Shown here one piece after another: positions 3,551-32,584 of a stretch of 32,584 nucleotides of DNA (within the stretch, counting starts at the first letter, position 1; each line of letters begins with the position of its first letter). The DNA comes from a virus (lineage: Duplodnaviria; Heunggongvirae; Uroviricota; Caudoviricetes): IMG/VR virus record IMGVR_UViG_2565956616_000004; one strand, 5' to 3'. Below the pieces are notes generated by a model. That model made no database searches. It was not told the DNA's origin and saw only the letters and a list, made by a program, of their open reading frames with translations. The position numbers and the translations under genes were made by a program.

Positions 3551-4645
3551 TCACGAGAAACTCTTTTCTGATGTCAGCCAACAGTGCTCGTGCATATCTC
3601 TTGGTGGTTTTTCGACAAATGCCTCTTCAGCCACATCCTGCCAGGGGATTTGTTTAGCCCATTCAGTTATAGCGTTATGGTTTGCCGAGAATAACGGTAT
3701 TGTATAGGCCTTCAGCCAGTCTAATGTGCTGGAGTTGTGTTTTTGAGCGTGATGTTTCGCATGGTGTTTGGCGATCACGATCGTAGGCACTACCCATTTA
3801 CTACCGTCAGTCATTGTGAAGTGCATATTACGGGGAACAGATGACTTTTCCATCAACTCCCGAATCCCGGGGAATTTCCCCAAGATCAATCGGCGATATT
3901 CATCGCTATTGCGCCCACCAAACTCTTTGGCTTTGAATTCAAGATATGCTTCAGAAACGAGAGGTGAATCCTCTGTGTTTAGAGTTATCGCCGTGAAAAA
4001 ACCAGCAGGATTGTTTTTACTATGGGCCAACCGGTGATGCGAATCATAAAAGTACCCTTTCTCGCGTTCCGATGGTTTCGACAGCAACAGCAGGCGCGAG
4101 TCATAATTGGTTAAATTGCCAGTTATCACTGCATGAGCGCGATCGCTGATTTCCGCCGAGTTAATAACGATGAAAAGATCGTGCGGTCCAGTAAAACCAG
4201 CCAGAGACTCTTCGTTATTCAGACAATAGGTTATATAGACGCATCCCCATGTTTCACTGATATGCACCAACCCTTTGTCAGGGTGTATTCTGAAATAATT
4301 GCCAAGAAAAGGGTGTTTTTGGGTAACTCGCTCCCAATAACGGAACATATAGTCAATTATTGTTTTTCGACAATCGTTAATCGCAGGAGAAACAACCACT
4401 GTACGGGAACACGAATACAGTATTGTTTGCAGGATGCTAATCACTGCCACAATAGAGGTTTCCCCAATACCATGTGGTGTGGTGGCAGTGATTTTGGCTC
4501 CGGTGTTCTTTATCGCGTTAATAATTTTTGCTTGATGAGGTGTTAACTCAATGTCAAGCAACTCTTTTGCTGCCAGTTCCCAATTGTCTTTATACCGTTC
4601 TATCAGTGCTAACCAGGCAGATTCATTCTGTATACGATTAATCAC
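3551..4645 (-). CDS. PacB-like terminase large-subunit ATPase-domain paralogue (364 aa) with degenerate Walker A and B motifs and no nuclease domain
   Basis: Clear colinear similarity to the PacB encoded at 23848-25332 (for example GYFYDSHHRLA vs [25 protein letters not shown] vs [14 protein letters not shown]). Walker A is HGIGETS vs GHGTGKS in PacB (K to E); Walker B is LFIVINSAEI vs [10 protein letters not shown] (DE to NS). Confidence 0.65.
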   Translation of the reverse strand: MINRIQNESAWLALIERYKDNWELAAKELLDIELTPHQAKIINAIKNTGAKITATTPHGIGETSIVAVISILQTILYSCSRTVVVSPAINDCRKTIIDYMFRYWERVTQKHPFLGNYFRIHPDKGLVHISETWGCVYITYCLNNEESLAGFTGPHDLFIVINSAEISDRAHAVITGNLTNYDSRLLLLSKPSEREKGYFYDSHHRLAHSKNNPAGFFTAITLNTEDSPLVSEAYLEFKAKEFGGRNSDEYRRLILGKFPGIRELMEKSSVPRNMHFTMTDGSKWVVPTIVIAKHHAKHHAQKHNSSTLDWLKAYTIPLFSANHNAITEWAKQIPWQDVAEEAFVEKPPRDMHEHCWLTSEKSFS

Positions 4646-5426
4646 TTTCCACCTCTTCCGTGGTGTTTTCTTGCAGTTCTGTTAATGCAGCACGACATAG
4701 GTTCCGGGCATTGGCTATAGCCACACTTTTGACTTCATCCGTCATCGTGCAGGTAATGTACTGATCGAGTTCTTCAGCGCGGATGATGCTTTTGCCAATC
4801 AGAAACTGTATTTGCCATAGCAGATCGGCATCCATAATCAGAATTTCTGCCGGGCCTTCAGGGCCAGCCGGGAAGGAAACATAAGACTGTTTGCCCAGGC
4901 CGACAACTCGACAACTTGCTTCAAGAATTGCGCGCTTGAGGTCTGACTTTATAACGGAAACAGGTTGATTTTCACCAGTGATTACGCCGTTGACATGGAA
5001 AGGCATGTAGCTTGAAATACGCTCTACTTTCCACACGCCAGCAAGCGATCCTTCATGCAGCACAATGGGGGTAACCGCGAGTTTCATCTCACCATATAAC
5101 TGCTGGCAGATAGCTGGATTGCTGAATACATCTAAAGGCTCACATTCAAACAGCGGCGCAATCTGCATGAGGTCCATCATGGTCATCCCTGGGGTACGAG
5201 CAGTAATGAATTTGCGCATACCAGTATCCATTGCGCTCCAGATTGCTACACCATGCTTTTTGCTCACTTCTTCAGTAAAGCCAAGGTGGCACATGATGGT
5301 TTTTTCGATAGCCAGATCAGAGATAGAAACCTTTTCGCCAGGTACTCCATCATTATTGATGGTCACTTCGACACTCTGGCCATTACGTAGGCGGTATTGA
5401 ATGGTTTTAGTATTTTGTGCTGTCAT
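4638..5426 (-). CDS. Hypothetical protein (262 aa)
   Basis: ORF taken from the internal ATG at 5426 (MTAQNTK...) rather than the longer track ORF; it overlaps the start of the downstream PacB-like gene by 8 nt. No recognisable motifs. Confidence 0.5.
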   Translation of the reverse strand: MTAQNTKTIQYRLRNGQSVEVTINNDGVPGEKVSISDLAIEKTIMCHLGFTEEVSKKHGVAIWSAMDTGMRKFITARTPGMTMMDLMQIAPLFECEPLDVFSNPAICQQLYGEMKLAVTPIVLHEGSLAGVWKVERISSYMPFHVNGVITGENQPVSVIKSDLKRAILEASCRVVGLGKQSYVSFPAGPEGPAEILIMDADLLWQIQFLIGKSIIRAEELDQYITCTMTDEVKSVAIANARNLCRAALTELQENTTEEVESD

Positions 5427-5440
5427 AGTCTTTTCTCTGC

Positions 5441-5623
5441 TTAAAAACTGATGTATTGCGTCTTCAGGTGGGTTAGGAATGTTTTCCCACCAGCGAAAGC
5501 AATATCTCGTGGTGTTCTGTTCGTTAAAAACGCGTGCCATTGCCAACTTTGGCGTTTTTTAGCGAGTTCGTGCTTTTGTTGGCGTTTGGACCACCGCTTT
5601 TCTTTCAGTCGTTTTTTACTCAT
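5441..5623 (-). CDS. Small highly basic protein (60 aa), function unknown
   Basis: ATG at 5623 lies just downstream of the ssb stop on the same strand; Lys/Arg-rich sequence; weak Shine-Dalgarno. Confidence 0.35.
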   Translation of the reverse strand: MSKKRLKEKRWSKRQQKHELAKKRQSWQWHAFLTNRTPRDIAFAGGKTFLTHLKTQYISF

Positions 5624-6844: not shown

Positions 6845-7091
6845 ACTCCGGCAGCTCCGCCGACTTTCGACAATGAAGTTATCGCTGGCGGCGATAGTTT
6901 TTGACTCGATTTTCATGGCGGTATATGTGCTCAATGAGACGTGGCCACTGGAACCGCTATTGTATGCCGGGCTTCGGCTGTGCCTGACATTTTTGAGCAT
7001 GGCTGCGAGATTGATGCAGCAGAAAGAAACCGCTTCAGATTGTCCACGCCGCGCGGTGCGCAAATATATGGCACGAAGGCGAAGGCGATAA
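6837..7091 (+). CDS. Small hydrophobic membrane protein, possibly lysis-associated
   Basis: ATG at 6837 overlaps the lyz stop (ATGAATAA); the product has predicted hydrophobic segments and an Arg-rich tail. No family recognised. Confidence 0.4.
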   Translation: MNKLRQLRRLSTMKLSLAAIVFDSIFMAVYVLNETWPLEPLLYAGLRLCLTFLSMAARLMQQKETASDCPRRAVRKYMARRRRR

Positions 7092-7102
7092 TAGTTAACG
7101 AG

Positions 7103-7130
7103 AACCCCGGCAGCTGCCGGGGTTATTTTT
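7103..7130 (+). terminator. Intrinsic terminator after the lysis genes
   Basis: Palindrome ccccggcag/ctgccgggg (7105-7122) followed by ttattttt. Confidence 0.6.
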
Positions 7131-7135
7131 GGTGG

Positions 7136-9866
<2,731 letters not shown>

Positions 9867-16734: not shown

Positions 16735-17175
16735 ATGGCCACACTATCTGATACAATAAAACCGAATAAAACATATCTTGAGGCGGTACTCCGTACAGCG
16801 TTGTTAGGAAAGACAGAAGACGAATACGTTGATTTCTTCCTGTCAGGGCTACGCGGGCGATTACTGAAAAATCCCCGCCTGTACCGCAGCTATGGTCCAT
16901 ACTGGCCGGAAATTAAAAAATTATTACTGGAGCGCGGTTATGGTAATTTCGGTCGTCTCGTTGACCGTGACGTTCGCAAAATTTACCGTTATGACCGCCC
17001 GGCGCTAACACTCATAGCCGCGACGCTCTACAGCCAGGAGCGTTTTGATAATGGTCAGATATACTCAGCCTGGCATTTACTGCCAGTGCCTGAAGAAGTT
17101 GACGACCAGGACTATGAGTTTGAGTCTTACGATTTGGAAGTTGAAGCCTTGGCACAGGCTGGAGAGAAAACTTGA
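16735..17175 (+). CDS. Hypothetical 146-aa protein at the position of P1 ulx
   Basis: ATG at 16735 directly downstream of darB on the same strand. Identity is inferred from gene order only. Confidence 0.5.
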   Translation: MATLSDTIKPNKTYLEAVLRTALLGKTEDEYVDFFLSGLRGRLLKNPRLYRSYGPYWPEIKKLLLERGYGNFGRLVDRDVRKIYRYDRPALTLIAATLYSQERFDNGQIYSAWHLLPVPEEVDDQDYEFESYDLEVEALAQAGEKT

Positions 17176-17420
17176 AAAAGCGATACTACACAGTAAAGCA
17201 TGGGACGCTACGAGCATTACAAGAGTTTGCTGACAAGCATAACGTTGAGGTGCGCAGGGAAGGGGGAAGTAAAGCTCTGCGCATGTACCGTCCGGACGGG
17301 AAATGGCGGACGGTCGTCGATTTCAAAACAAACAGTGTTCCCCAGGGCGTCCGCGACCGGGCATTCGAAGAATGGGAGCAGATCATCATAGATAACGCAT
17401 TGCTTCTGAATGCTGATTAA
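17172..17420 (+). CDS. Small protein (82 aa) at the position of P1 lxc (C1 co-repressor)
   Basis: TTG start overlapping the upstream stop (TTGA), preceded by GGAGAG. The size matches my recollection of Lxc; not a sequence-level recognition. Confidence 0.45.
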   Translation: MKKRYYTVKHGTLRALQEFADKHNVEVRREGGSKALRMYRPDGKWRTVVDFKTNSVPQGVRDRAFEEWEQIIIDNALLLNAD

Positions 17421-17424
17421 GAAC

Positions 17425-17453
17425 TCTCCGGCCTAGGGAGATTAGGCCGGAGA
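17425..17453. terminator. Stem-loop between the convergent lxc-like and SIR2 genes
   Basis: Perfect 11-bp stem tctccggccta / taggccggaga with loop gggagat; the flanking U-tracts are only moderate. Confidence 0.5.
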
Positions 17454-17461
17454 TAAATATA

Positions 17462-18766
17462 CTATATAAACTTAGATACAATATCGTGAATCTGTTGTAG
17501 CGGGATATCTTCCATCTCATTCTTAATAAGAGAGCGGTTAGATGCTGTCAGTGAAGGCCATTTTGTTTTCCAGGCTAGATATGCTCGCCATGAGTAGCCT
17601 GTTTCGTAAGGTTTATTCATATAAGTCATTGAGTGTTCAACCGCATGTATGTATTTTTTCTCAAAATTGGTTCCTTTTACTTCAAATAAACTACCGAAAT
17701 AAATAAGCCATTTTGCCAGGTGTTCATACTGCTCCCATGCGCCAGGCTTTTTAGTAAGTTCTATTTTTTTATCTATTATATTACAAAAAACATTTAATAC
17801 ATTTTCATTATTCCAGCTATATCCAGATGATGAAATGGAGGAAATGATATGATAAAAAGAATCCTCTAGCTTCAAGAACTCTATTTTATACTCTCTTCCG
17901 TTTTTTATTACCGATTTGATTGAGTGCCTCAATTTGTCTTTTATTTTTTTTGCTTCTGGAATTTTATCGTTAAGTTTTCTAAAGAAATCAGATACCTCTG
18001 TTTTATCTATAACCCTAACCCCATAGCAGGAAAAATAGTAATCTTTAATAGGTTGCAATAGTTCCCCTCGGGAAACAAGGAAAATATTGGAGGACATTAC
18101 GTTGTCCCGTGAAAATACCTTATATTCATTTATAATAGCCTTTAGGTTCGCGTCACTTAGAGAATAGCCAAGGATAACAATAGTGTTTTCATGTAGAACT
18201 GTGCTTAGTTTATTAGAAAAGTAAGAATTACCATTTATAAATCTGAAATAATCCTCGCTAGTAACAACCATGTCTGATGGGGAGTCTATAGAACCGTGAA
18301 CATGGTAGACTTTAACCTCACAATTATATTTTGGAATTGGCAGGCCGGGGGTGATTGTACACGTTCGATTCTCTCCAGCCAGCTTTTCTGCTAACTTGTC
18401 ATAATTTGTCGTAATTACTTTAAATGTGTTTTCTTTGAAAAAGTCTTGAATATATTCAATTGATGGATCAAGTTCGATTGAGGCTATGATTTTCTCAATC
18501 TCTTGGTAAATATTTTTCCCCGAAAGTATAAATTTTAGTGCAATAACCTGAGCAGCTTCTTCAAGGCTAAGGTCTTTTGCTTTTCCATCAGGAAATAATT
18601 CCTCTTTGAGTGAGTCACCATCCTTCAATAAACCGCACAGTTGCTCCAATAAAGATTGCCAACTTGGGGCTTTATCATCAGAAACAGCCTTTGAAAATCC
18701 AGTGCCTGTAAGAAAGCACAGCCTATGTGTAGCCGCTGCATAGGCAATTTCTATATACTCGCTCAT
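17462..18766 (-). CDS. SIR2-family (SIR2_2-like) domain protein, 434 aa: N-terminal SIR2 NADase-like domain plus an unassigned C-terminal domain of about 200 aa; candidate anti-phage effector
   Basis: ATG at 18766 with a GGAG Shine-Dalgarno 6 nt upstream. Motifs FLTGTGFS (aa 18-25), ITTNYD (aa 118-123; N121 codon at 18404-18406) and HVHGS (aa 155-159; H157 codon at 18296-18298). The gene is visibly AT-rich (roughly one-third GC by eye) while the flanking genes are near 50 percent. Confidence 0.85.
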   Translation of the reverse strand: MSEYIEIAYAAATHRLCFLTGTGFSKAVSDDKAPSWQSLLEQLCGLLKDGDSLKEELFPDGKAKDLSLEEAAQVIALKFILSGKNIYQEIEKIIASIELDPSIEYIQDFFKENTFKVITTNYDKLAEKLAGENRTCTITPGLPIPKYNCEVKVYHVHGSIDSPSDMVVTSEDYFRFINGNSYFSNKLSTVLHENTIVILGYSLSDANLKAIINEYKVFSRDNVMSSNIFLVSRGELLQPIKDYYFSCYGVRVIDKTEVSDFFRKLNDKIPEAKKIKDKLRHSIKSVIKNGREYKIEFLKLEDSFYHIISSISSSGYSWNNENVLNVFCNIIDKKIELTKKPGAWEQYEHLAKWLIYFGSLFEVKGTNFEKKYIHAVEHSMTYMNKPYETGYSWRAYLAWKTKWPSLTASNRSLIKNEMEDIPLQQIHDIVSKFI

Positions 18767-18822
18767 TACTTACTCCATTTACTTATAGTTCTACGGAGAA
18801 GTATACCCTAATGCATTGACGT

Positions 18823-19464
18823 TTATAGATAATTTCCTTTTCCTGTTAATACTCCCTTAGGCACCTGTTTTTGTGCCAGCGTTTGGGTGCCGCGAATTAT
18901 GTTAATCAGAGGGCTTAGTAACGATGGTTCCTGGCGTGCCTCAACTTCTCCAGCCATTGCCCTGATGTAGTCGGCGCTGGCAACGTTGTTGTATTCCGTC
19001 GCAAAGCAACATAGTAACGTCAGAACATGCTCTGTCGTTATTTCGCTCCAGTTAATGTTGAAAAATTCATCGCCTTTTTTATCGTGTTCGGAATCGAAGA
19101 TGCTTTGGTGGAGGATGTATTTGCCGGATTCCTTGCGCGGTAACTTGATTGCTTTCTGGCGTTCCAGCTCCTTATAAATCTGCATTGCCTCAATTAGTAC
19201 CGGCCTGCCGTTCATGAAGGGATCGCGCAACCTTACACGCTGGCCAACTCGACCAGTAATAAAGCTGTTTTCCTCTTCCACCAGCACGATAAAACCCTTT
19301 TCCTCTTTTTCTCGCAATTCGCGCAGCAGCTGGAGTTCCATATCGCGGCGGCGTTCAGGGTAGCTGGTCCGCTCAGCCATTATTAGCTCATTGTTGATCC
19401 ATGCAGCAGTCATTGACGCCGGTTTGCCGACGCTCATCGAAACAACGCATATTTTCTTATCCAT
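18823..19464 (-). CDS. Hypothetical 214-aa protein immediately upstream of the SIR2 gene on the same strand (position of P1 mat)
   Basis: ATG at 19464 with an AGGGGG Shine-Dalgarno; the longer 262-aa track ORF uses a GTG at 19611 with no Shine-Dalgarno and runs through a terminator. Backbone-like GC content. No recognisable catalytic motif. Confidence 0.5.
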   Translation of the reverse strand: MDKKICVVSMSVGKPASMTAAWINNELIMAERTSYPERRRDMELQLLRELREKEEKGFIVLVEEENSFITGRVGQRVRLRDPFMNGRPVLIEAMQIYKELERQKAIKLPRKESGKYILHQSIFDSEHDKKGDEFFNINWSEITTEHVLTLLCCFATEYNNVASADYIRAMAGEVEARQEPSLLSPLINIIRGTQTLAQKQVPKGVLTGKGNYL

Positions 19465-29009: not shown

Positions 29010-29081
29010 AAACACCTCGTGTACTCGTTATGTGTACACAATTATAAACCTCACAGGCATAAAGCACCAGCCCTTTGCAGC

Positions 29082-29471
29082 TTAAATAACCGGACAATCA
29101 TCAAACTCCCCACTTCGGGCATCATTGATGACATGAGTGATCACACCAAAAACAGCATTACTGCCCGTGCATCCATCGTCATCTACTGGTAACGCCTCTT
29201 TCTTCCCGGTGCTTAAATCCTCCAGGTGCTGGCGCGGATACTTCCTGTATCTCTTTATGCGATATTCACCCTCCATAGCGCACACAAGCAGCGAACCATC
29301 AACTGGAGTAAGCGAAGAATCAACCACCAGCAAAGCACCCTGCAATATTCCCTCACGGTGATGGCTATCAGCTGCCCGCATGAAGTAGGTTGCTGATGGA
29401 TGTCTAATTATCTGCTGATCAAGAGAAATTCGGCTTTCAACATAATCCGCCGCAGGAGAAGGGAAGCCCAT
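29082..29471 (-). CDS. humD: HumD (UmuD-like SOS mutagenesis protein, peptidase S24 fold)
   Basis: 129 aa; LexA/UmuD-like C-terminal domain; a LexA box lies 19 bp upstream. Confidence 0.85.
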   Translation of the reverse strand: MGFPSPAADYVESRISLDQQIIRHPSATYFMRAADSHHREGILQGALLVVDSSLTPVDGSLLVCAMEGEYRIKRYRKYPRQHLEDLSTGKKEALPVDDDGCTGSNAVFGVITHVINDARSGEFDDCPVI

Positions 29472-29489
29472 AGCGTTTTACCTCAATGA

Positions 29490-29509
29490 TACTGTTTATT
29501 CATACAGTA
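29490..29509. promoter_or_regulatory. LexA (SOS) box upstream of humD
   Basis: TACTGTTTATTCATACAGTA: CTGT (29492-29495), 8 nt, ACAG (29504-29507). Confidence 0.8.
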
Positions 29510-29594
29510 TACATTGAAAAGGCATAGTTTGTGAAAGCGGGGTTTGTAGGCGCGCCACGCTGGGGGCTAATCACATTTCTCCCCCATCTTGCCG

Positions 29595-29846
29595 TTATTT
29601 TTTTGGTGCATCCTCGTTCTGATACACCGGATCGCTCCCTTTTGGCAACTGGAGGCTTAACTGCCGGTAGTGCCGTAGCCGTTCCATGAAATAGGCGCGC
29701 AGGTTTTCCGGTTGCTCACGGGCCACCTGCTCTGCAATCACAGGTATATTCAGCCGTTCTTTGTAAGCAACGCCGCTGGCGGCAAGGTCTACGTTCACCT
29801 TGTCTCGCTCTTCCTGGCTTTTAGCTGCTATATTTCGATCTGACAC
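29595..29846 (-). CDS. hot: Hot, homologue of the DNA polymerase III theta subunit (HolE)
   Basis: 83 aa, apparent GTG start with a GGAGG Shine-Dalgarno; [43 protein letters not shown] parallels E. coli theta. Confidence 0.85.
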
Positions 29847-29878
29847 AAGAAACCTCCAGGAGTTAGTGGATCAGGCAC

Positions 29879-30229
29879 ATGCACAATAACGTTCTCAATG
29901 TTAGCCGTTCAATTCAGACAATCAGAGACTGCACCAGTGTGGTGGCATCAATCCCATTGCGAAACAGCATAGACGAACTGCAAATTCGTGTATTGAATCC
30001 GAATCAGGCTAATAAGCAATTGCGCTTTATTTTGACGCTGAAAAGTGAAACAGAGGGGATAAAGCACAGCGTAAAAGTGTTTTCTGAGGCCATTCTGCTT
30101 AATGGGAAGTTCCGGCATCTGGTAAGGCCAGAACGTCAATATCCTGACGTCCTGGCGCGTGAAAAAGACCTTCTTTCTGAAGTTCAGGATAGGGTGATCG
30201 ATTTCGTCAAATGCTATCCCCTGCATTGA
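29879..30229 (+). CDS. Hypothetical 116-aa ORF (weakly supported; an overlapping minus-strand ORF 29948-30226 is equally possible)
   Basis: ORF only; weak Shine-Dalgarno; no motif recognised. Confidence 0.25.
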   Translation: MHNNVLNVSRSIQTIRDCTSVVASIPLRNSIDELQIRVLNPNQANKQLRFILTLKSETEGIKHSVKVFSEAILLNGKFRHLVRPERQYPDVLAREKDLLSEVQDRVIDFVKCYPLH

Positions 30230-30428
30230 GGGCAGGTGTTCCCTTCCGCAAAGTAGGGAAAATTGCTATCAAGTTCATCACACCATCTGCGATGGTCGTA
30301 GCACCAAAAGCCTCCCACGGTAAACCAAAAGACTTCATCCACTGGGACACTCGATCTAGTATATCTGCTGGTGGCAGTTCTTCTGGCAATAATTTGCCTG
30401 ATAATTCCCTTTCCGCCCGCGACAGCAT
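30207..30428 (-). CDS. Coiled-coil-like ORF in the -1 frame relative to the short upstream ORF (73 aa from its own ATG, 80 codons open)
   Basis: MLSRAERELSGKLLPEELPP...; its own ATG at 30428 has no Shine-Dalgarno; the frame is open upstream to the slippery site. Confidence 0.45.
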   Translation of the reverse strand: MLSRAERELSGKLLPEELPPADILDRVSQWMKSFGLPWEAFGATTIADGVMNLIAIFPTLRKGTPALNAGDSI

Positions 30429-30496
30429 TTTTTTGAGGCTCGCGTTCTCTTTTTCAGCTCATCTACGCGCACCTGTAATTCAGCTTTCGTTGGCAT
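30356..30496 (-). CDS. Short ORF (46 aa) with a strong Shine-Dalgarno that contains a G AAA AAG slippery heptamer; likely the 5' part of a frameshift-expressed gene
   Basis: GAGGTGG Shine-Dalgarno then ATG at 30496 (MPTKAELQVRVDELKK...); slippery heptamer at 30449-30455. Confidence 0.4.
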   Translation of the reverse strand: MPTKAELQVRVDELKKRTRASKKCCRGRKGNYQANYCQKNCHQQIY

Positions 30497-31130
30497 GGTC
30501 CACCTCATGCTTTTCAGCCACCAGCGGCAATAAAGCCCTGGCCATCTTATGAACCAATAGTGCATCAATAATGCCAAGCGTATGCCCCGGCTTAATGTTT
30601 AATGCCGCCTCAAGGTGACACCTTTCCAGGTCACTTTTCTCGGCTTGTTTATGATGATCTGGTGTAATAACGTCGCCCAAAACACGGCTAATTCTTTCTC
30701 GTAATTGCTGGGTGCCAGCACACTTGATCGCTGTATCGTGGAGACGGTTAACCAGTTCGCGATAAACATGCGGCTTAATGCGGATACGTTCACCGGTGAC
30801 GCCCTTTCCTGGCGCTGGCACCGAACTATCCGGAATATCCGGATAGTTGCCAGCCTCGTAAGCTACCCGCAGCCAGTGCATGAATGTTTCAGTGGACACA
30901 CAACCACAGTCCACATCGATTTTTCCGCGTTGCTGTTCCAGCCAATGCTCAAAATTCAATCTACACGTATTACTTTCATGTTGCTCTTTTTGTCTCAAGG
31001 CCAGCATCTGCTGGGCTATTTCCAATACTTCATCTGCCGTATATCCAGCACCGTGACCATACATTTCGATACGGGAAATAATCTCTGATATGCGCTCTTC
31101 AGTGATTCTGGTCATTTCTTTTTGCGCCAT
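30480..31130 (-). CDS. Hypothetical 216-aa protein
   Basis: ATG at 31130; no recognised motif; overlaps the next gene's start. Confidence 0.55.
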   Translation of the reverse strand: MAQKEMTRITEERISEIISRIEMYGHGAGYTADEVLEIAQQMLALRQKEQHESNTCRLNFEHWLEQQRGKIDVDCGCVSTETFMHWLRVAYEAGNYPDIPDSSVPAPGKGVTGERIRIKPHVYRELVNRLHDTAIKCAGTQQLRERISRVLGDVITPDHHKQAEKSDLERCHLEAALNIKPGHTLGIIDALLVHKMARALLPLVAEKHEVDHANES

Positions 31131-31486
31131 TTCTTTTCACATTCCTTAGTCCATTCTTCAATGTTCATTTTGGCAATATCAGTCATTCCATCACCTAAGA
31201 AATACTTTTTCCGGTATGTCTTGCACTTAAACCACACTACAACAGCCACCAGCCAGAAAATAAAAGGCCATACAGCAATACCAACGACAGCCGCGATAAA
31301 GCCCAATAGCCATAAATGAAGCTCTCCAACTTCTGTTTCCGGCAATATTCTTAAAGAATTAAACAGCAGGATGAACGAATGGTCGTATGCATTGGCAGTA
31401 TAAGACATGCAATCCATATAATTAAAGTCATAGCCTGCGGCTGCCGCCCATAATGGGCGGTCAAGAAAATGTTTTAGTGTCATCAT
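31112..31486 (-). CDS. Small membrane protein (124 aa) with a Lys-rich C-terminus
   Basis: ATG at 31486; central hydrophobic helices (LWLLGFIAAVVGIAVWPFIFWLVAVVVWF). Confidence 0.5.
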   Translation of the reverse strand: MMTLKHFLDRPLWAAAAGYDFNYMDCMSYTANAYDHSFILLFNSLRILPETEVGELHLWLLGFIAAVVGIAVWPFIFWLVAVVVWFKCKTYRKKYFLGDGMTDIAKMNIEEWTKECEKKWRKKK

Positions 31487-31492
31487 ATAAAT

Positions 31493-31786
31493 TTAAGGTT
31501 CAGACCAGTTATCTTCAATAGCAATGCTTAATCTTTGTAGCCATTCTGCTAATTTCAGCATTGCTTCTCTTTCGCTTAAACCACGAGGAAAATCATCAAG
31601 CGAAATTGTTGGCTTGAATCCCCCGCAATTATCCATTTCAACTGTCAGATTTTGTTCCAGCACGGTATTTCTTACGCGGCTATTGTGCCGGAGCAAATAT
31701 ACTGAGCGTGATTTATTGGTTTTGTGGTCTAGCTTATATTCGGTAAGTATCATCTGGCTTTTGCCATGATTATTACCTCTCCACAT
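31493..31786 (-). CDS. Hypothetical protein of about 97 aa
   Basis: Start taken at ATG 31786 (MWRGNNHGK...) with a GAGGT Shine-Dalgarno 5 nt upstream, rather than the TTG at 31882 used by the ORF track. Confidence 0.45.
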   Translation of the reverse strand: MWRGNNHGKSQMILTEYKLDHKTNKSRSVYLLRHNSRVRNTVLEQNLTVEMDNCGGFKPTISLDDFPRGLSEREAMLKLAEWLQRLSIAIEDNWSEP

Positions 31787-31793
31787 ACTTACC

Positions 31794-31916
31794 TCACTTA
31801 ATAAAACAACTCCATGCGTAGTTGATGATTTTTTCCCACGTAATATAAATCTGCGCTCCGGCAGTAAAACCAAAGCCAACAATTGCTGAAAAAATCAAAA
31901 CATTTACTTTTGACAT
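31794..31916 (-). CDS. Possible 40-aa hydrophobic peptide
   Basis: ATG at 31916 (MSKVNVLIFSAIVGFGFTAGAQ...); its stop overlaps the Shine-Dalgarno of the downstream gene. Very tentative. Confidence 0.25.
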   Translation of the reverse strand: MSKVNVLIFSAIVGFGFTAGAQIYITWEKIINYAWSCFIK

Positions 31917-31964
31917 TATAAATTTTCTCTCGGTGTCGTAGGTGATAGCACCATAATTGATAAT

Positions 31965-32566
31965 TTAGTGAGTTAGCAGTTCCATTTTTTTGATGATTTC
32001 CGCATGAGCATCATCGTTATCAACACTTAGCTCGTTTAATGCTTCTCGCACTACATCAACTTCTTCAGGCTGAAAGAAGTCGTCGCGGTAATCACCAAAT
32101 AGAACCGAAACCAGCCTGCCACCAGCAACATCAAGATTGGCGCTAACAGGTGGCTCTTTGCCATCCTCAAATTCGACTAGTTGCCATTCACAAGGTCAGC
32201 TCGAACATATAGCGTGTCATCATGGTGCTGATTGTGGCTGCACCACGTTAATTCGCTTAACTCGCCATCTTCTGGCCATACTCCAGCCGTTTGCAGCCAG
32301 ATATGGGCTGGCGCATCTTGGCAAGGTGTATTAACTGGCAACTTGTAAGTTTGGCTTACAGGTTGGCTACCCTGAAGCATGGCAGCGTGGCAGGCATCCT
32401 CTACGCCTTTAACTGCATCTGCGCAGTAGTTATAGCGATTGCATTCCACTAACTTCTGCTTGAGATTTTCAATTGCTTGCGCGACATCATCCTGTATTTC
32501 CGGAACTGGCGGAACGGCTGTCTGCTGCTCTCGAACGTCATTAGTCGCTATCGGTTCTGCTGCCAA
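31965..32566 (-). pseudogene. Possible frameshifted gene: a 129-aa ORF (32177-32566) followed by a start-less 77-codon ORF in the -1 frame (31965-32195)
   Basis: The downstream reading frame (…EFEDGKEPPVSANLDVAGGRLVSVLFGDYRDDFFQPEEVDVVREALNELSVDNDDAHAEIIKKMELLTH) has no plausible start codon and overlaps the upstream ORF end by 19 nt; no slippery heptamer at the junction. Confidence 0.3.
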
Positions 32567-32584
32567 CTGACTGGCATATTTGTT

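What the first reader, a model, noticed from the sequence alone, without database searches (positions are those of the whole stretch)
17462..18766. AT-rich SIR2-family (NADase-like) gene in a P1-like phage: candidate undescribed anti-phage defence gene
Directly visible: a 434-aa minus-strand ORF with a good Shine-Dalgarno carries the three hallmark SIR2 motifs in the right order and spacing: GTGFS (aa 21-25), TTNYD (aa 119-123, N121 at 18404-18406) and HVHGS (aa 155-159, H157 at 18296-18298). The C-terminal 200 residues are helical-looking with no Gly-rich SLOG-like motif. The gene is conspicuously AT-rich against flanks near 50 percent GC, with the compositional step right at its start and stop, the pattern of a recent horizontal insertion. 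Established knowledge: SIR2-domain proteins are NAD-depleting effectors in several anti-phage systems (Thoeris ThsA, DSR1/2, SIR2-HerA, SIR2-APAZ/Ago). Inference: this is a compact single-gene, or two-gene with the upstream ORF, abortive-infection-type system carried by the phage itself, probably to exclude competing phages. It does not match the architectures I know: too short for DSR, no SLOG or TIR partner for Thoeris, no HerA or Argonaute.
Basis: partly seen in the sequence, partly recalled or inferred. Interest (0 to 1): 0.85.

Follow-up and report, generated by a model that had tools for sequence, protein, structure and literature searches.

The report
Compact SIR2 defence-like gene in P1
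A P1-like phage-plasmid carries, in the slot where phage P1 keeps its restriction system, a 434-residue protein that joins an NAD-consuming SIR2 domain to a small helical-repeat domain; it is most likely a one-gene anti-phage system, a new small variant of a known kind, and it has not been tested.

Summary
A 434-aa minus-strand ORF (17462-18766) has a GGAG ribosome-binding site. It carries the GTGFS, TTNYD and HVHGS motifs at the stated positions, and at 35% GC against 47-50% flanks it is the most AT-rich stretch of the window.

It is a Pfam SIR2_2 protein (E 2e-23). Its predicted fold matches the NADase domains of DSR2, ThsA and KomC, and the catalytic Asn and His are invariant. The C-terminal 180 residues form a helical-repeat domain. 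That domain occurs only in this family and always behind SIR2.

No neighbouring gene is conserved across about 65 full-length loci from other genera, so it is a single-gene module. The upstream ORF is the P1 core gene mat, not a partner.

The 1.4-kb cassette fills the lxc-mat slot. That slot is empty in RCS47, holds the EcoP1I restriction system in P1, and holds CapRel in SJ46. A second allele (57% identity) occupies the same slot in other P1-like plasmids.

Best reading: a compact, DSR-like, self-contained NAD-depleting abortive-infection protein. Defence activity, the trigger and the expression pattern are untested. A preprint's ~440-aa "sole-Sir2" may or may not be the same family.

I call it a new variant of a known kind, of moderate interest.

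The parts
17462..18766 (-). SIR2-family gene, 434 aa (identical to WP_023155280.1)
   Evidence: ORF. Pfam SIR2_2 E 2.1e-23. 100% DNA match annotated 'SIR2 family protein'. dN/dS of 0.17-0.32 against the 92.9% and 97.8% alleles indicates purifying selection.
18002..18766 (-). N-terminal SIR2 (Rossmann-like, NAD-binding) domain, aa 1-255
   Evidence: AlphaFold2 model with alternating strands and helices. Foldseek gives TM 0.70 to the DSR2 SIR2 domain and 0.64 to KomC, with ThsA also hit. Sequence hits to ThsA, DSR2 and KomC structures.
18692..18706 (-). GTGFS glycine-rich NAD-binding loop (aa 21-25)
   Evidence: Translation. T20-S25 are invariant in 35 homologues.
18404..18406 (-). Codon of N121 in TTNYD, predicted catalytic Asn
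   Evidence: Invariant. It sits in the TTNYD motif that aligns with the same motif of DSR2 and ThsA.
18296..18298 (-). Codon of H157 in HVHGS, predicted catalytic His
   Evidence: Invariant. It aligns with DSR2 H171, the residue mutated in the deposited H171A structures.
17465..18001 (-). C-terminal all-alpha helical-repeat domain, aa 256-434, putative sensor or regulatory domain
18767..18822 (-). 56-bp upstream spacer with the GGAG Shine-Dalgarno (18776-18773); no consensus sigma-70 promoter
   Evidence: Sequence. The spacer is identical in front of the divergent second allele. The promoter scan finds no minus-strand site and no terminator between mat and the gene.
17425..17453 (.). G+C-rich hairpin between the convergent stops of lxc and the SIR2 gene; cassette-specific terminator-like element
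   Evidence: 11-pair stem reported. RCS47, SJ46 and allele 2 each have a different hairpin at this position.
17172..17420 (+). lxc, P1 backbone gene and left border of the variable slot
   Evidence: PHROG 2160. Annotated Lxc in P1, RCS47 and SJ46. Sequences diverge immediately after its stop codon.
18823..19464 (-). mat (maturation control), P1 backbone gene and right border of the slot; not a partner of the SIR2 gene
   Evidence: Annotated Mat in P1, RCS47 and SJ46. Present in 694 PLSDB plasmids against 66 with this SIR2 allele.

Best explanation
The gene encodes a self-contained sensor-effector immunity protein carried as cargo by a P1-like phage-plasmid.

- Effector: the N-terminal SIR2_2 domain (aa 1-255, catalytic N121 and H157) is an NAD+-consuming enzyme of the ThsA/DSR/KomC type.
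- Regulator: the family-specific C-terminal helical-repeat domain (aa 256-434) keeps the enzyme inactive until an infection cue is met, most likely a protein of a superinfecting phage that it binds directly, as in DSR2.
- Outcome: activation depletes NAD+, which stops the growth of the infected lysogen and of the invading phage (abortive infection). This protects the clonal population and the resident P1-like element.
- Acquisition: the gene arrived as a 1.4-kb AT-rich cassette in the lxc-mat slot, a hotspot that other P1-like elements fill with other defence systems.

Shown here: the domain identity, the fold, the invariant catalytic residues, the single-gene organisation, the hotspot location and purifying selection. 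Inferred: NADase chemistry (from homology), the defence role (from context), direct protein sensing and abortive infection (by analogy with DSR2).
For: Enzyme:
- Pfam SIR2_2 E 2.1e-23.
- The best sequence matches among solved structures are the NADases ThsA, DSR2 and KomC.
- The predicted fold superposes on the DSR2 SIR2 domain with TM 0.70.
- GTGFS, N121 and H157 are invariant.
- There is no canonical-sirtuin Pfam hit and no CxxC zinc motif.

Single gene:
- Clustering all ORFs around about 65 full-length loci from other genera yields no shared neighbour apart from the gene itself and antisense artefacts inside it.
- Neighbours differ in size, strand and distance, also for distant Firmicutes-like members.

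Defence context:
- The slot is empty in RCS47.
- It holds EcoP1I res/mod in P1 and the RelA/SpoT gene of SJ46. Phage SJ46 encodes the experimentally validated CapRel-SJ46 (PMC9712102).
- It holds other cargo in JL22 and Ro157c2YLVW.
- A second allele, 57% identical, sits in the same slot.
- Homologues elsewhere lie beside type I R-M, Mrr, AIPR, NERD-UvrD, Gabija, TIR and DUF2971 genes and integrases. In an E. coli prophage the homologue lies at the prophage end next to the integrase.
- About 29 IMG/VR viral contigs carry full-length members.

Sensor-like C-terminus:
- It is a helical repeat, a fold class typical of protein binding.
- It is exclusive to this family.
- It diverges faster than the SIR2 domain.

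Functional gene: dN/dS 0.17-0.32.

Precedent: a ~440-aa standalone Sir2 was reported to be an NADase in vitro, and a homologue of it protected E. coli against T2 and T4 (bioRxiv 10.1101/2024.12.27.630466).
Against: - There is no experimental datum for this protein or for any identified member of its family.
- No PADLOC 2.0 or NCBIfam model matches it at full length. All hits cover only the SIR2 part.
- No consensus sigma-70 promoter and no terminator lie between mat and the gene. In P1, mat is under C1 and late-promoter control. The gene may therefore be transcribed with mat and be low in lysogens, which would fit a guard of the lysogen poorly.
- Many homologues sit among ordinary housekeeping genes such as aconitase, HtpG and LepA, so the defence-island signal is only partial.
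- The helical C-terminal domain has no specific structural relative, DSR2 included. Direct protein sensing is therefore pure analogy.
- TIR genes next to 3 of 38 homologues leave room for signal-based activation in some lineages.
Confidence: 0.55

Rival explanations
1. It is the effector arm of a signal-based system, similar to Thoeris or Kongming. The helical domain would bind a small nucleotide signal made by a TIR or other synthase encoded elsewhere in the host or the element. The gene alone would then be inert.
For: ThsA is the top solved-structure hit by sequence, with KomC also listed. TIR-domain genes lie next to the homologue in 3 of 38 loci. In L014 the TIR gene is directly downstream on the same strand, and two of the TIR proteins score as ThsB (E down to 6e-52) in PADLOC.
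Against: There is no SLOG, Macro or other known ligand-binding fold; the C-terminus is a helical repeat. No TIR or other neighbour is conserved. The three TIR proteins have different architectures and positions. The cassette in the window contains nothing but this gene, and none of the 15 window ORFs scanned against Pfam has a TIR domain.
Confidence: 0.1
2. It is not an immune protein. It would be a NAD-dependent protein deacylase or ADP-ribosyltransferase that modifies a host or phage protein as a lysogenic-conversion or life-cycle function.
For: RefSeq names it 'SIR2 family NAD-dependent protein deacylase'. Many chromosomal homologues sit among housekeeping genes. A helical-repeat domain could bind a substrate protein.
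Against: It belongs to SIR2_2, not to the canonical sirtuin family, and lacks the zinc-binding cysteines. Every solved structure it matches by sequence is a ThsA, DSR2 or KomC-type protein; all but one are from anti-phage work or named as NADases, and that one is deposited as an NAD-dependent deacetylase. The patchy distribution, AT-rich cassette, hotspot location, allelic replacement and carriage on viral contigs are the signature of defence cargo.
Confidence: 0.12
3. It acts for the phage during lytic growth. It would be co-transcribed with mat from the C1-controlled and late promoters, lowering NAD+ or modifying a target to help P1 development, to exclude co-infecting phages late, or to counter a host defence.
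For: It is on the same strand as mat, with a 56-bp gap that has no terminator and no consensus promoter. In P1, mat has a C1 operator and a late promoter. The genes on the other side, darB and ulx, are anti-restriction genes.
Against: The homologues are mostly chromosomal genes outside phages. The same slot holds R-M and CapRel, which act in the lysogen. An NADase active during P1's own lytic cycle would harm P1.
Confidence: 0.08
4. It is a plasmid-addiction or toxin-like module that stabilises the P1-like plasmid by killing cells that lose it.
For: NAD-depleting enzymes are potentially toxic. The P1 plasmid already relies on the phd/doc addiction pair, which is present in the window.
Against: The cassette has no antitoxin gene and no room for one, and no Rfam RNA is found. 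Chromosomal homologues have no conserved partner. Purifying selection acts on an intact, catalytically complete enzyme.
Confidence: 0.05

Closest known systems
DSR2 (defence-associated sirtuin 2, Bacillus subtilis)
   Same: Both are single proteins with an N-terminal SIR2 NADase domain followed by an all-helical region. DSR2 is the best structural match for the SIR2 domain (TM 0.70 to the isolated DSR2 SIR2 domain), and the TTNYD Asn and the His (H157 aligned with H171) are shared. It is the model for direct sensing of a phage protein (tail tube) followed by NAD+ depletion (PMC11087589 and PMC10981675, abstracts).
Thoeris ThsA
   Same: ThsA is the closest solved structure by sequence (SeThsA 7uxt, E 1.5e-9; BcThsA), has a similar length (~480 aa), and has an N-terminal SIR2 NADase.
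   Different: ThsA has a C-terminal SLOG domain that binds gcADPR and needs a ThsB TIR partner. Here the C-terminus is a helical repeat. The window has no TIR gene, and TIR is not a conserved neighbour.
'sole-Sir2' of the CRISPR-supervised systems preprint (bioRxiv 10.1101/2024.12.27.630466)
   Same: It is a standalone Sir2 protein of about 440 aa. It converted NAD+ to ADPR in vitro, and a homologue of it protected E. coli against T2 and T4. It is functionally the nearest precedent for a compact one-gene SIR2 system.
   Different: The preprint describes the Sir2 domain as C-terminal and the unknown part as N-terminal, the reverse of this protein. It was found inside type I-C cas operons, and no cas neighbour was seen for this family. 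No sequences are available to me, so identity is untested.
PADLOC candidate PDC-S25 (probably equivalent to PHROG 2695)
   Same: It is the best PADLOC hit (E 1.9e-24) and is a single-gene SIR2 candidate.
   Different: Only the SIR2 core aligns (profile positions 127-278 of 517). PDC-S25 is about 90 aa longer, and its C-terminal half does not match. The only paper found to hold the term mentions it once and is on another subject; I did not read it.
CapRel-SJ46 and EcoP1I (the other occupants of the same P1 slot)
   Same: They occupy the same genomic position between lxc and mat in P1-like elements. CapRel is likewise a single fused sensor-effector protein carried by a P1-like prophage (PMC9712102).
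   Different: The proteins and chemistries are unrelated: tRNA pyrophosphorylation for CapRel and type III restriction for EcoP1I.

Membership tests
SIR2_2 superfamily (Pfam PF13289), defence-type sirtuins | Significant match to the SIR2_2 profile above the gathering score | tested here: met
   83.4 bits against a cut-off of 24.5, E 2.1e-23, aa 117-253.
SIR2_2 superfamily (Pfam PF13289), defence-type sirtuins | Rossmann-like NAD-binding fold with the catalytic Asn and His | tested here: met
   AlphaFold2 pLDDT 84.7. Foldseek TM 0.70 to the DSR2 SIR2 domain. N121 and H157 are invariant, and H157 aligns with DSR2 H171.
SIR2_2 superfamily (Pfam PF13289), defence-type sirtuins | NAD+ glycohydrolase activity | not testable with these tools
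   Needs an enzyme assay.
Canonical sirtuin deacylases (CobB/Sir2, Pfam PF02146) | Match to PF02146 and a Cys4 zinc-binding module | tested here: not met
   No PF02146 hit at E up to 0.1. There are six Cys and no CxxC motif.
Thoeris (ThsA/ThsB) | C-terminal SLOG (or Macro) signal-binding domain in ThsA | tested here: not met
   ThsA profile hits stop at profile position 215-230. The C-terminus is all-alpha and matches only helical repeats.
Thoeris (ThsA/ThsB) | Adjacent ThsB TIR gene | tested here: not met
   The cassette holds one gene. No neighbour is conserved. TIR is nearby in only 3 of 38 loci.
DSR1 / DSR2 | Full-length match to the NCBIfam equivalog (about 1000-1250 aa architecture) | tested here: not met
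   Dsr2 30.6 bits and Dsr1 21.2 bits against cut-offs of 1400, over the SIR2 core only. The protein is 434 aa.
SIR2-HerA (Nezha / Gao_Her) | Adjacent HerA-type ATPase gene | tested here: not met
   The neighbours in the window are lxc and mat. No conserved partner is found in about 65 loci. The one DUF87 gene seen, in Halomonas, is four genes away.
SPARSA (SIR2-APAZ with short pAgo) | APAZ domain and an adjacent short Argonaute | tested here: not met
   PADLOC 'SIR2' models give only weak partial hits, E 3e-6 or worse. There is no conserved neighbour.
Lamassu (SIR2-type LmuA with LmuB/LmuC) | Adjacent SMC-like LmuB | tested here: not met
   The LmuA profile aligns only over positions 21-221 of 433. 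No SMC partner is conserved, and the upstream (L045) and downstream (L061) neighbours that gave SMC_N hits when scanned are ABC ATPases.
Avs5 (SIR2-STAND) | STAND NTPase domain after SIR2 | tested here: not met
   No NTPase Pfam hit. The C-terminal domain is a 180-aa helical repeat.
PDC-S25 (PADLOC candidate) | Full-length match to the ~520-position profile | tested here: not met
   Only profile positions 127-278 of 517 align.
sole-Sir2 (CRISIS preprint) | Sequence homology over the full length, and domain order | not testable with these tools
   No sequence or accession is held. The text gives the opposite domain order.
P1-like (Punavirus) lxc-mat defence hotspot cargo | Insertion exactly between the stop codons of lxc and mat, where other elements carry other cargo or none | tested here: met
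   RCS47 has 39 bp there, P1 has res/mod, SJ46 has RelA/SpoT, and JL22 and Ro157c2YLVW have other genes. Homology breaks right after the lxc stop and resumes at the mat stop.

The most novel reading that the evidence does not exclude
This family would be the smallest self-contained SIR2 immune receptor. A 180-residue, Trp-rich helical-repeat domain found nowhere else would directly recognise a phage protein and release an NADase. The two 57%-identical alleles that swap in the same P1 slot behind an identical 56-bp leader would give P1-like plasmids different phage-exclusion specificities. That would make it a compact, naturally allelic model for how sensor domains of abortive-infection proteins diversify on a phage-plasmid.
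Probability: 0.3. Interest if true: 0.6.

Novelty: new variant of a known kind. Interest (0 to 1): 0.45.

Why it matters
SIR2 NADases are a major effector class of bacterial immunity. The characterised single-protein forms (DSR1, DSR2, Avs5) are large, and the small ones (ThsA, KomC, SIR2-HerA, SPARSA) need partner genes.

- Tractability: a 434-aa protein that senses and kills on its own would be a convenient minimal system for studying how a SIR2 domain is held off and switched on.
- Prevalence: one of the two alleles of this gene matches in 133 of 5,426 complete E. coli genomes, almost always on a plasmid (135 of 137 matching places). That is about 2.4%. 69 of these carry this allele at 80% coverage or more. 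This allele is in 66 PLSDB plasmids, and the P1 gene mat is in 694.
- Practical relevance: it may therefore shape phage susceptibility, including to therapeutic phages, in clinical and livestock isolates. P1-like plasmids also spread resistance genes.
- Wider point: the lxc-mat slot behaves as a defence hotspot in a phage-plasmid and could be mined for further systems.

Tried and rejected
- Two-gene system with the upstream ORF: rejected. That ORF is P1 mat, which is present without the SIR2 gene and is unrelated to the genes upstream of homologues.
- A conserved partner anywhere within 6 kb either side: I clustered all ORFs of 70 aa or more from 80 genome loci and found none. Partners shorter than 70 aa or too diverged for BLASTP would be missed.
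- Lamassu, Thoeris, SIR2-HerA, SPARSA, Avs5 and DSR membership: each fails on a defining feature.
- Fusions of the C-terminal domain to other effectors: none in 1.84 billion representatives.
- A promoter for the gene: the consensus scan finds none between mat and the ATG, and by eye there is only a weak TATACT. This is unresolved.
- Hidden RNA genes: Rfam and tRNA scans of the window are empty.
- Literature: nothing under the protein accession and nothing relevant on SIR2 in P1-like elements. The PDC-S25 search returned only a passing mention in an unrelated paper. The S. thermophilus paper concerns SIR2-HerA only. The domain-centric screen excluded single-gene systems.
- The sole-Sir2 sequences could not be obtained.
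- INPHARED holds no phage record with this gene, although IMG/VR and PHROGs do.
Full report
**1. The observation**

The minus-strand ORF 17462-18766 encodes 434 residues. GTGFS is at 21-25, TTNYD at 119-123 and HVHGS at 155-159. The codon coordinates given for N121 and H157 are correct. A GGAG lies 6 nt upstream of the ATG.

The gene is the most AT-rich part of the window:
- The gene is 35.3% GC and the cassette 35.7%.
- The left flank is 50.5% GC and the right flank 47.0%.
- GC3 is 0.32, against 0.54 for mat and 0.58 for darB.

The surrounding genes are those of a P1-like phage-plasmid: ddrB, ssb, lyz, pro, prt, darB, ulx, lxc, mat, ref, c8, cre, c1, pacB and pacA, lpa, doc and a humD-like gene.

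**2. The protein**

*SIR2 domain.* Pfam SIR2_2 matches at E 2.1e-23, 83.4 bits against a cut-off of 24.5. Every sequence match to a solved structure is a ThsA, DSR2 or KomC-type protein; all but one are from anti-phage work or named as NADases, and that one is deposited as an NAD-dependent deacetylase. All matches lie within the SIR2 region. H157 aligns with DSR2 H171, the residue mutated in the deposited H171A structures.

An AlphaFold2 model built on 35 homologues (pLDDT 84.7, pTM 0.83) has an N-terminal alpha/beta domain (aa 1-255) and an all-helical C-terminal domain. Foldseek places the N-terminal domain on the isolated SIR2 domain of DSR2 (TM 0.70) and on KomC (TM 0.64), and also on ThsA. 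There is no hit to the canonical sirtuin family and no CxxC zinc motif. It is therefore not a housekeeping deacylase, despite the RefSeq product name.

A profile of this domain, searched against 1.84 billion representative proteins, finds just 97 clusters. In every full-length hit it starts near residue 255. All ten distant hits I checked carry SIR2_2 in front of it. So it is a family-specific domain and not a shuffled module.

It is well conserved, with many invariant aromatic residues: W344, Y347, W353, W393, W399 and W403. It nevertheless diverges faster than the SIR2 domain, with a mean identity to the window protein of 44% against 62%.

**3. One gene, not two**

The 213-aa ORF upstream (18823-19464) is P1 mat. 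It is annotated as such in P1, RCS47 and SJ46. It is present in 694 PLSDB plasmids, against 66 that carry this SIR2 allele. It is unrelated to the genes upstream of homologues elsewhere.

I fetched 80 loci from other genomes: Vibrio, Halomonas, Pseudoalteromonas, Pseudomonas, Pantoea, Proteus, Acinetobacter, Rhizobiales, Rhodobacterales and others. I then clustered all ORFs of 70 aa or more within 6 kb. The only cluster shared by more than six loci is the SIR2 gene itself, plus antisense ORFs inside it. Flanking genes differ in size, strand and spacing. Three distant, Firmicutes-like members are also standalone.

**4. Where it sits**

In phage RCS47, lxc and mat are 39 bp apart. In the window, homology to RCS47, SJ46 and P1 breaks immediately after the lxc stop (17420) and resumes at the mat stop (18823). 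The inserted cassette, 17421-18822, contains three things:
- a hairpin (17425-17453) that differs from the hairpins of the other elements;
- the gene;
- a 56-bp leader.

The same slot has several other states in sequenced P1-like elements:

| Element | Content of the lxc-mat slot |
|---|---|
| RCS47 | empty (39 bp) |
| P1 | type III R-M EcoP1I (res/mod) |
| SJ46 | RelA/SpoT-family gene |
| JL22 | 316-aa hypothetical gene |
| Ro157c2YLVW | HTH gene plus a hypothetical gene |
| MH422554 | about 1.15 kb unannotated |

Phage SJ46 encodes the experimentally validated CapRel-SJ46 (PMC9712102). I take the RelA/SpoT gene in its slot to be CapRel, on the basis of its family and its length.

In complete E. 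coli genomes, 133 of 5,426 have a match, and 135 of the 137 matching places are on plasmids. 69 genomes carry this allele. About 62 carry a second allele of the same family in the same slot, a 435-aa protein 57% identical to this one. The 56-bp leader is identical in front of both alleles, whereas the downstream hairpin differs. This points to allele replacement by recombination with one crossover at the 5' end of the gene.

This is the behaviour of a defence hotspot.

**5. Other context**

Homologues in other bacteria lie beside the following:
- a type I R-M HsdR, an AIPR protein and a NERD-UvrD helicase;
- Mrr, DUF2971 and TIR proteins;
- Gabija, on a plasmid-like contig;
- HNH, DUF4145, DUF87 and STAND genes, in Halomonas.

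In an E. coli prophage the homologue lies at the prophage edge next to the integrase. About 29 IMG/VR viral contigs carry full-length members, and about half of these are P1-like.

Others lie among ordinary metabolic genes. The defence-island signal is therefore real but not uniform.

The gene is under purifying selection, with dN/dS of 0.17 and 0.32 against the 92.9% and 97.8% alleles. In the closer comparison the C-terminal domain has 12 non-synonymous and 3 synonymous changes. That is suggestive of faster change, but the numbers are too small to weigh.

**6. How it most likely works**

- Shown: a SIR2_2 fold with an intact catalytic Asn and His, a private helical-repeat domain, single-gene organisation, and hotspot cargo on a temperate element.
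- Inferred from homology: NAD+ glycohydrolase activity.
- Inferred from context: anti-phage function.
- Inferred by analogy with DSR2: the helical domain holds the enzyme off and releases it on binding a phage protein, causing NAD+ depletion and abortive infection.

My confidence in the overall model is 0.55. It is higher for the enzyme class (about 0.85) and lower for direct protein sensing (about 0.35).

Caveats:
- No consensus promoter and no terminator separate mat from the gene. In P1, mat is under C1 and late control. Expression in the lysogen is therefore unproven.
- TIR genes adjacent to 3 of 38 homologues keep a signal-activated mode alive for some lineages.

**7. Comparison with known systems**

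It works like DSR2 or ThsA but is a member of neither:
- The Dsr2 and Dsr1 equivalog scores are 30.6 and 21.2 bits against cut-offs of 1400.
- There is no SLOG domain and no ThsB.
- There is no HerA, Ago, SMC or STAND part.
- The best PADLOC hit, the candidate PDC-S25, aligns over the SIR2 core only.
- PHROG 7567 is the same protein, with unknown function.

The nearest functional precedent is 'sole-Sir2', a standalone protein of about 440 aa. It is an NADase in vitro, and a homologue of it protects E. coli against T2 and T4 (bioRxiv 10.1101/2024.12.27.630466). That text places the Sir2 domain at the C-terminus and found the gene inside type I-C cas operons. I saw neither feature here, and I had no sequence for a direct comparison.

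The searchable literature has nothing relevant on a SIR2 gene in P1-like elements.

**8. Verdict**

This is a real, well-defined and widespread gene. It is a new compact variant of the SIR2 single-protein defence theme, sitting in a defence hotspot of P1-like phage-plasmids. Function is inferred, not shown. Interest is moderate, at 0.45.

Noticed in passing
L093:2279-3586 and L094:2273-3580 (P1-like plasmids pCFS3292-3 and pMS6198C); window 18767-18822: A second allele of the same SIR2 family occupies the same lxc-mat slot in about 62 complete E. coli genomes. It is 435 aa and 57% identical overall (SIR2 domain 62%, C-terminal domain 50%). Its 56-bp leader is identical to the window's, but its terminator hairpin differs. 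This suggests allele exchange with a crossover at the 5' end of the gene.
   Followed up: partly
L092, L010, L011, L100, L102, L103 (lxc-mat interval of RCS47, SJ46, P1, JL22, Ro157c2YLVW, MH422554): The lxc-mat interval is a multi-state hotspot. It is empty in RCS47. It holds EcoP1I res/mod in P1, a RelA/SpoT (CapRel) gene in SJ46, a 316-aa hypothetical gene in JL22, an HTH gene plus a hypothetical gene in Ro157c2YLVW, and about 1.15 kb of unannotated DNA in MH422554. The uncharacterised cargos could be further defence candidates.
   Followed up: partly
window 3551-5546 (-): Two overlapping ORFs of 364 and 302 aa lie between ddrB and ssb. They match PHROG 5902 and 2326 (unknown function) and have no Pfam or PADLOC hit. 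The first has a weak match to the ATPase part of large terminases (E 4e-9). At 44-46% GC they are slightly AT-richer than their neighbours.
   Followed up: partly
window about 29050-32584, against NZ_CP143628.1 13125 onward (L096): The plasmid whose SIR2 cassette (17421-18825) is identical to the window's (pZBEC21_01) carries a type I R-M operon (hsdM, hsdS, hsdR) right after phd/doc. The window instead has a humD-like S24 peptidase ORF and small PHROG-unknown ORFs there. This is a second variable point of the backbone.
   Followed up: no
L014:7406-8308, L021:7979-8842, L042:4459-5205: TIR-domain genes lie next to family members in 3 of 38 loci examined. In Vreelandella nanhaiensis (L014) the TIR gene is directly downstream on the same strand, 95 bp away. 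Two of the TIR proteins score as ThsB in PADLOC. This may be defence-island coincidence or an occasional functional pairing.
   Followed up: partly
window 17465-18001 against L104: Against the 97.8%-identical allele, the C-terminal domain has 12 non-synonymous and 3 synonymous changes (dN/dS about 1), while the SIR2 domain has 4 and 10 (0.11). The pattern disappears in the 92.9% allele, and the counts are too small to conclude anything.
   Followed up: partly
window 31112-31882 (-): Two small ORFs of 124 and 129 aa are about 40% GC, the next most AT-rich genes of the window. They match PHROG 2638 and 1258, both of unknown function.
   Followed up: no
L003-L006 (E. coli chromosomes), gene at 7001-8311: A 436-aa homologue (56% identity) sits at the edge of a lambdoid-type prophage. 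In three of the four loci shown it lies directly after the integrase-like gene; the fourth has only small ORFs upstream. Variable cargo follows in some strains, for example an AIDA-type autotransporter. This is a typical moron or defence position.
   Followed up: no
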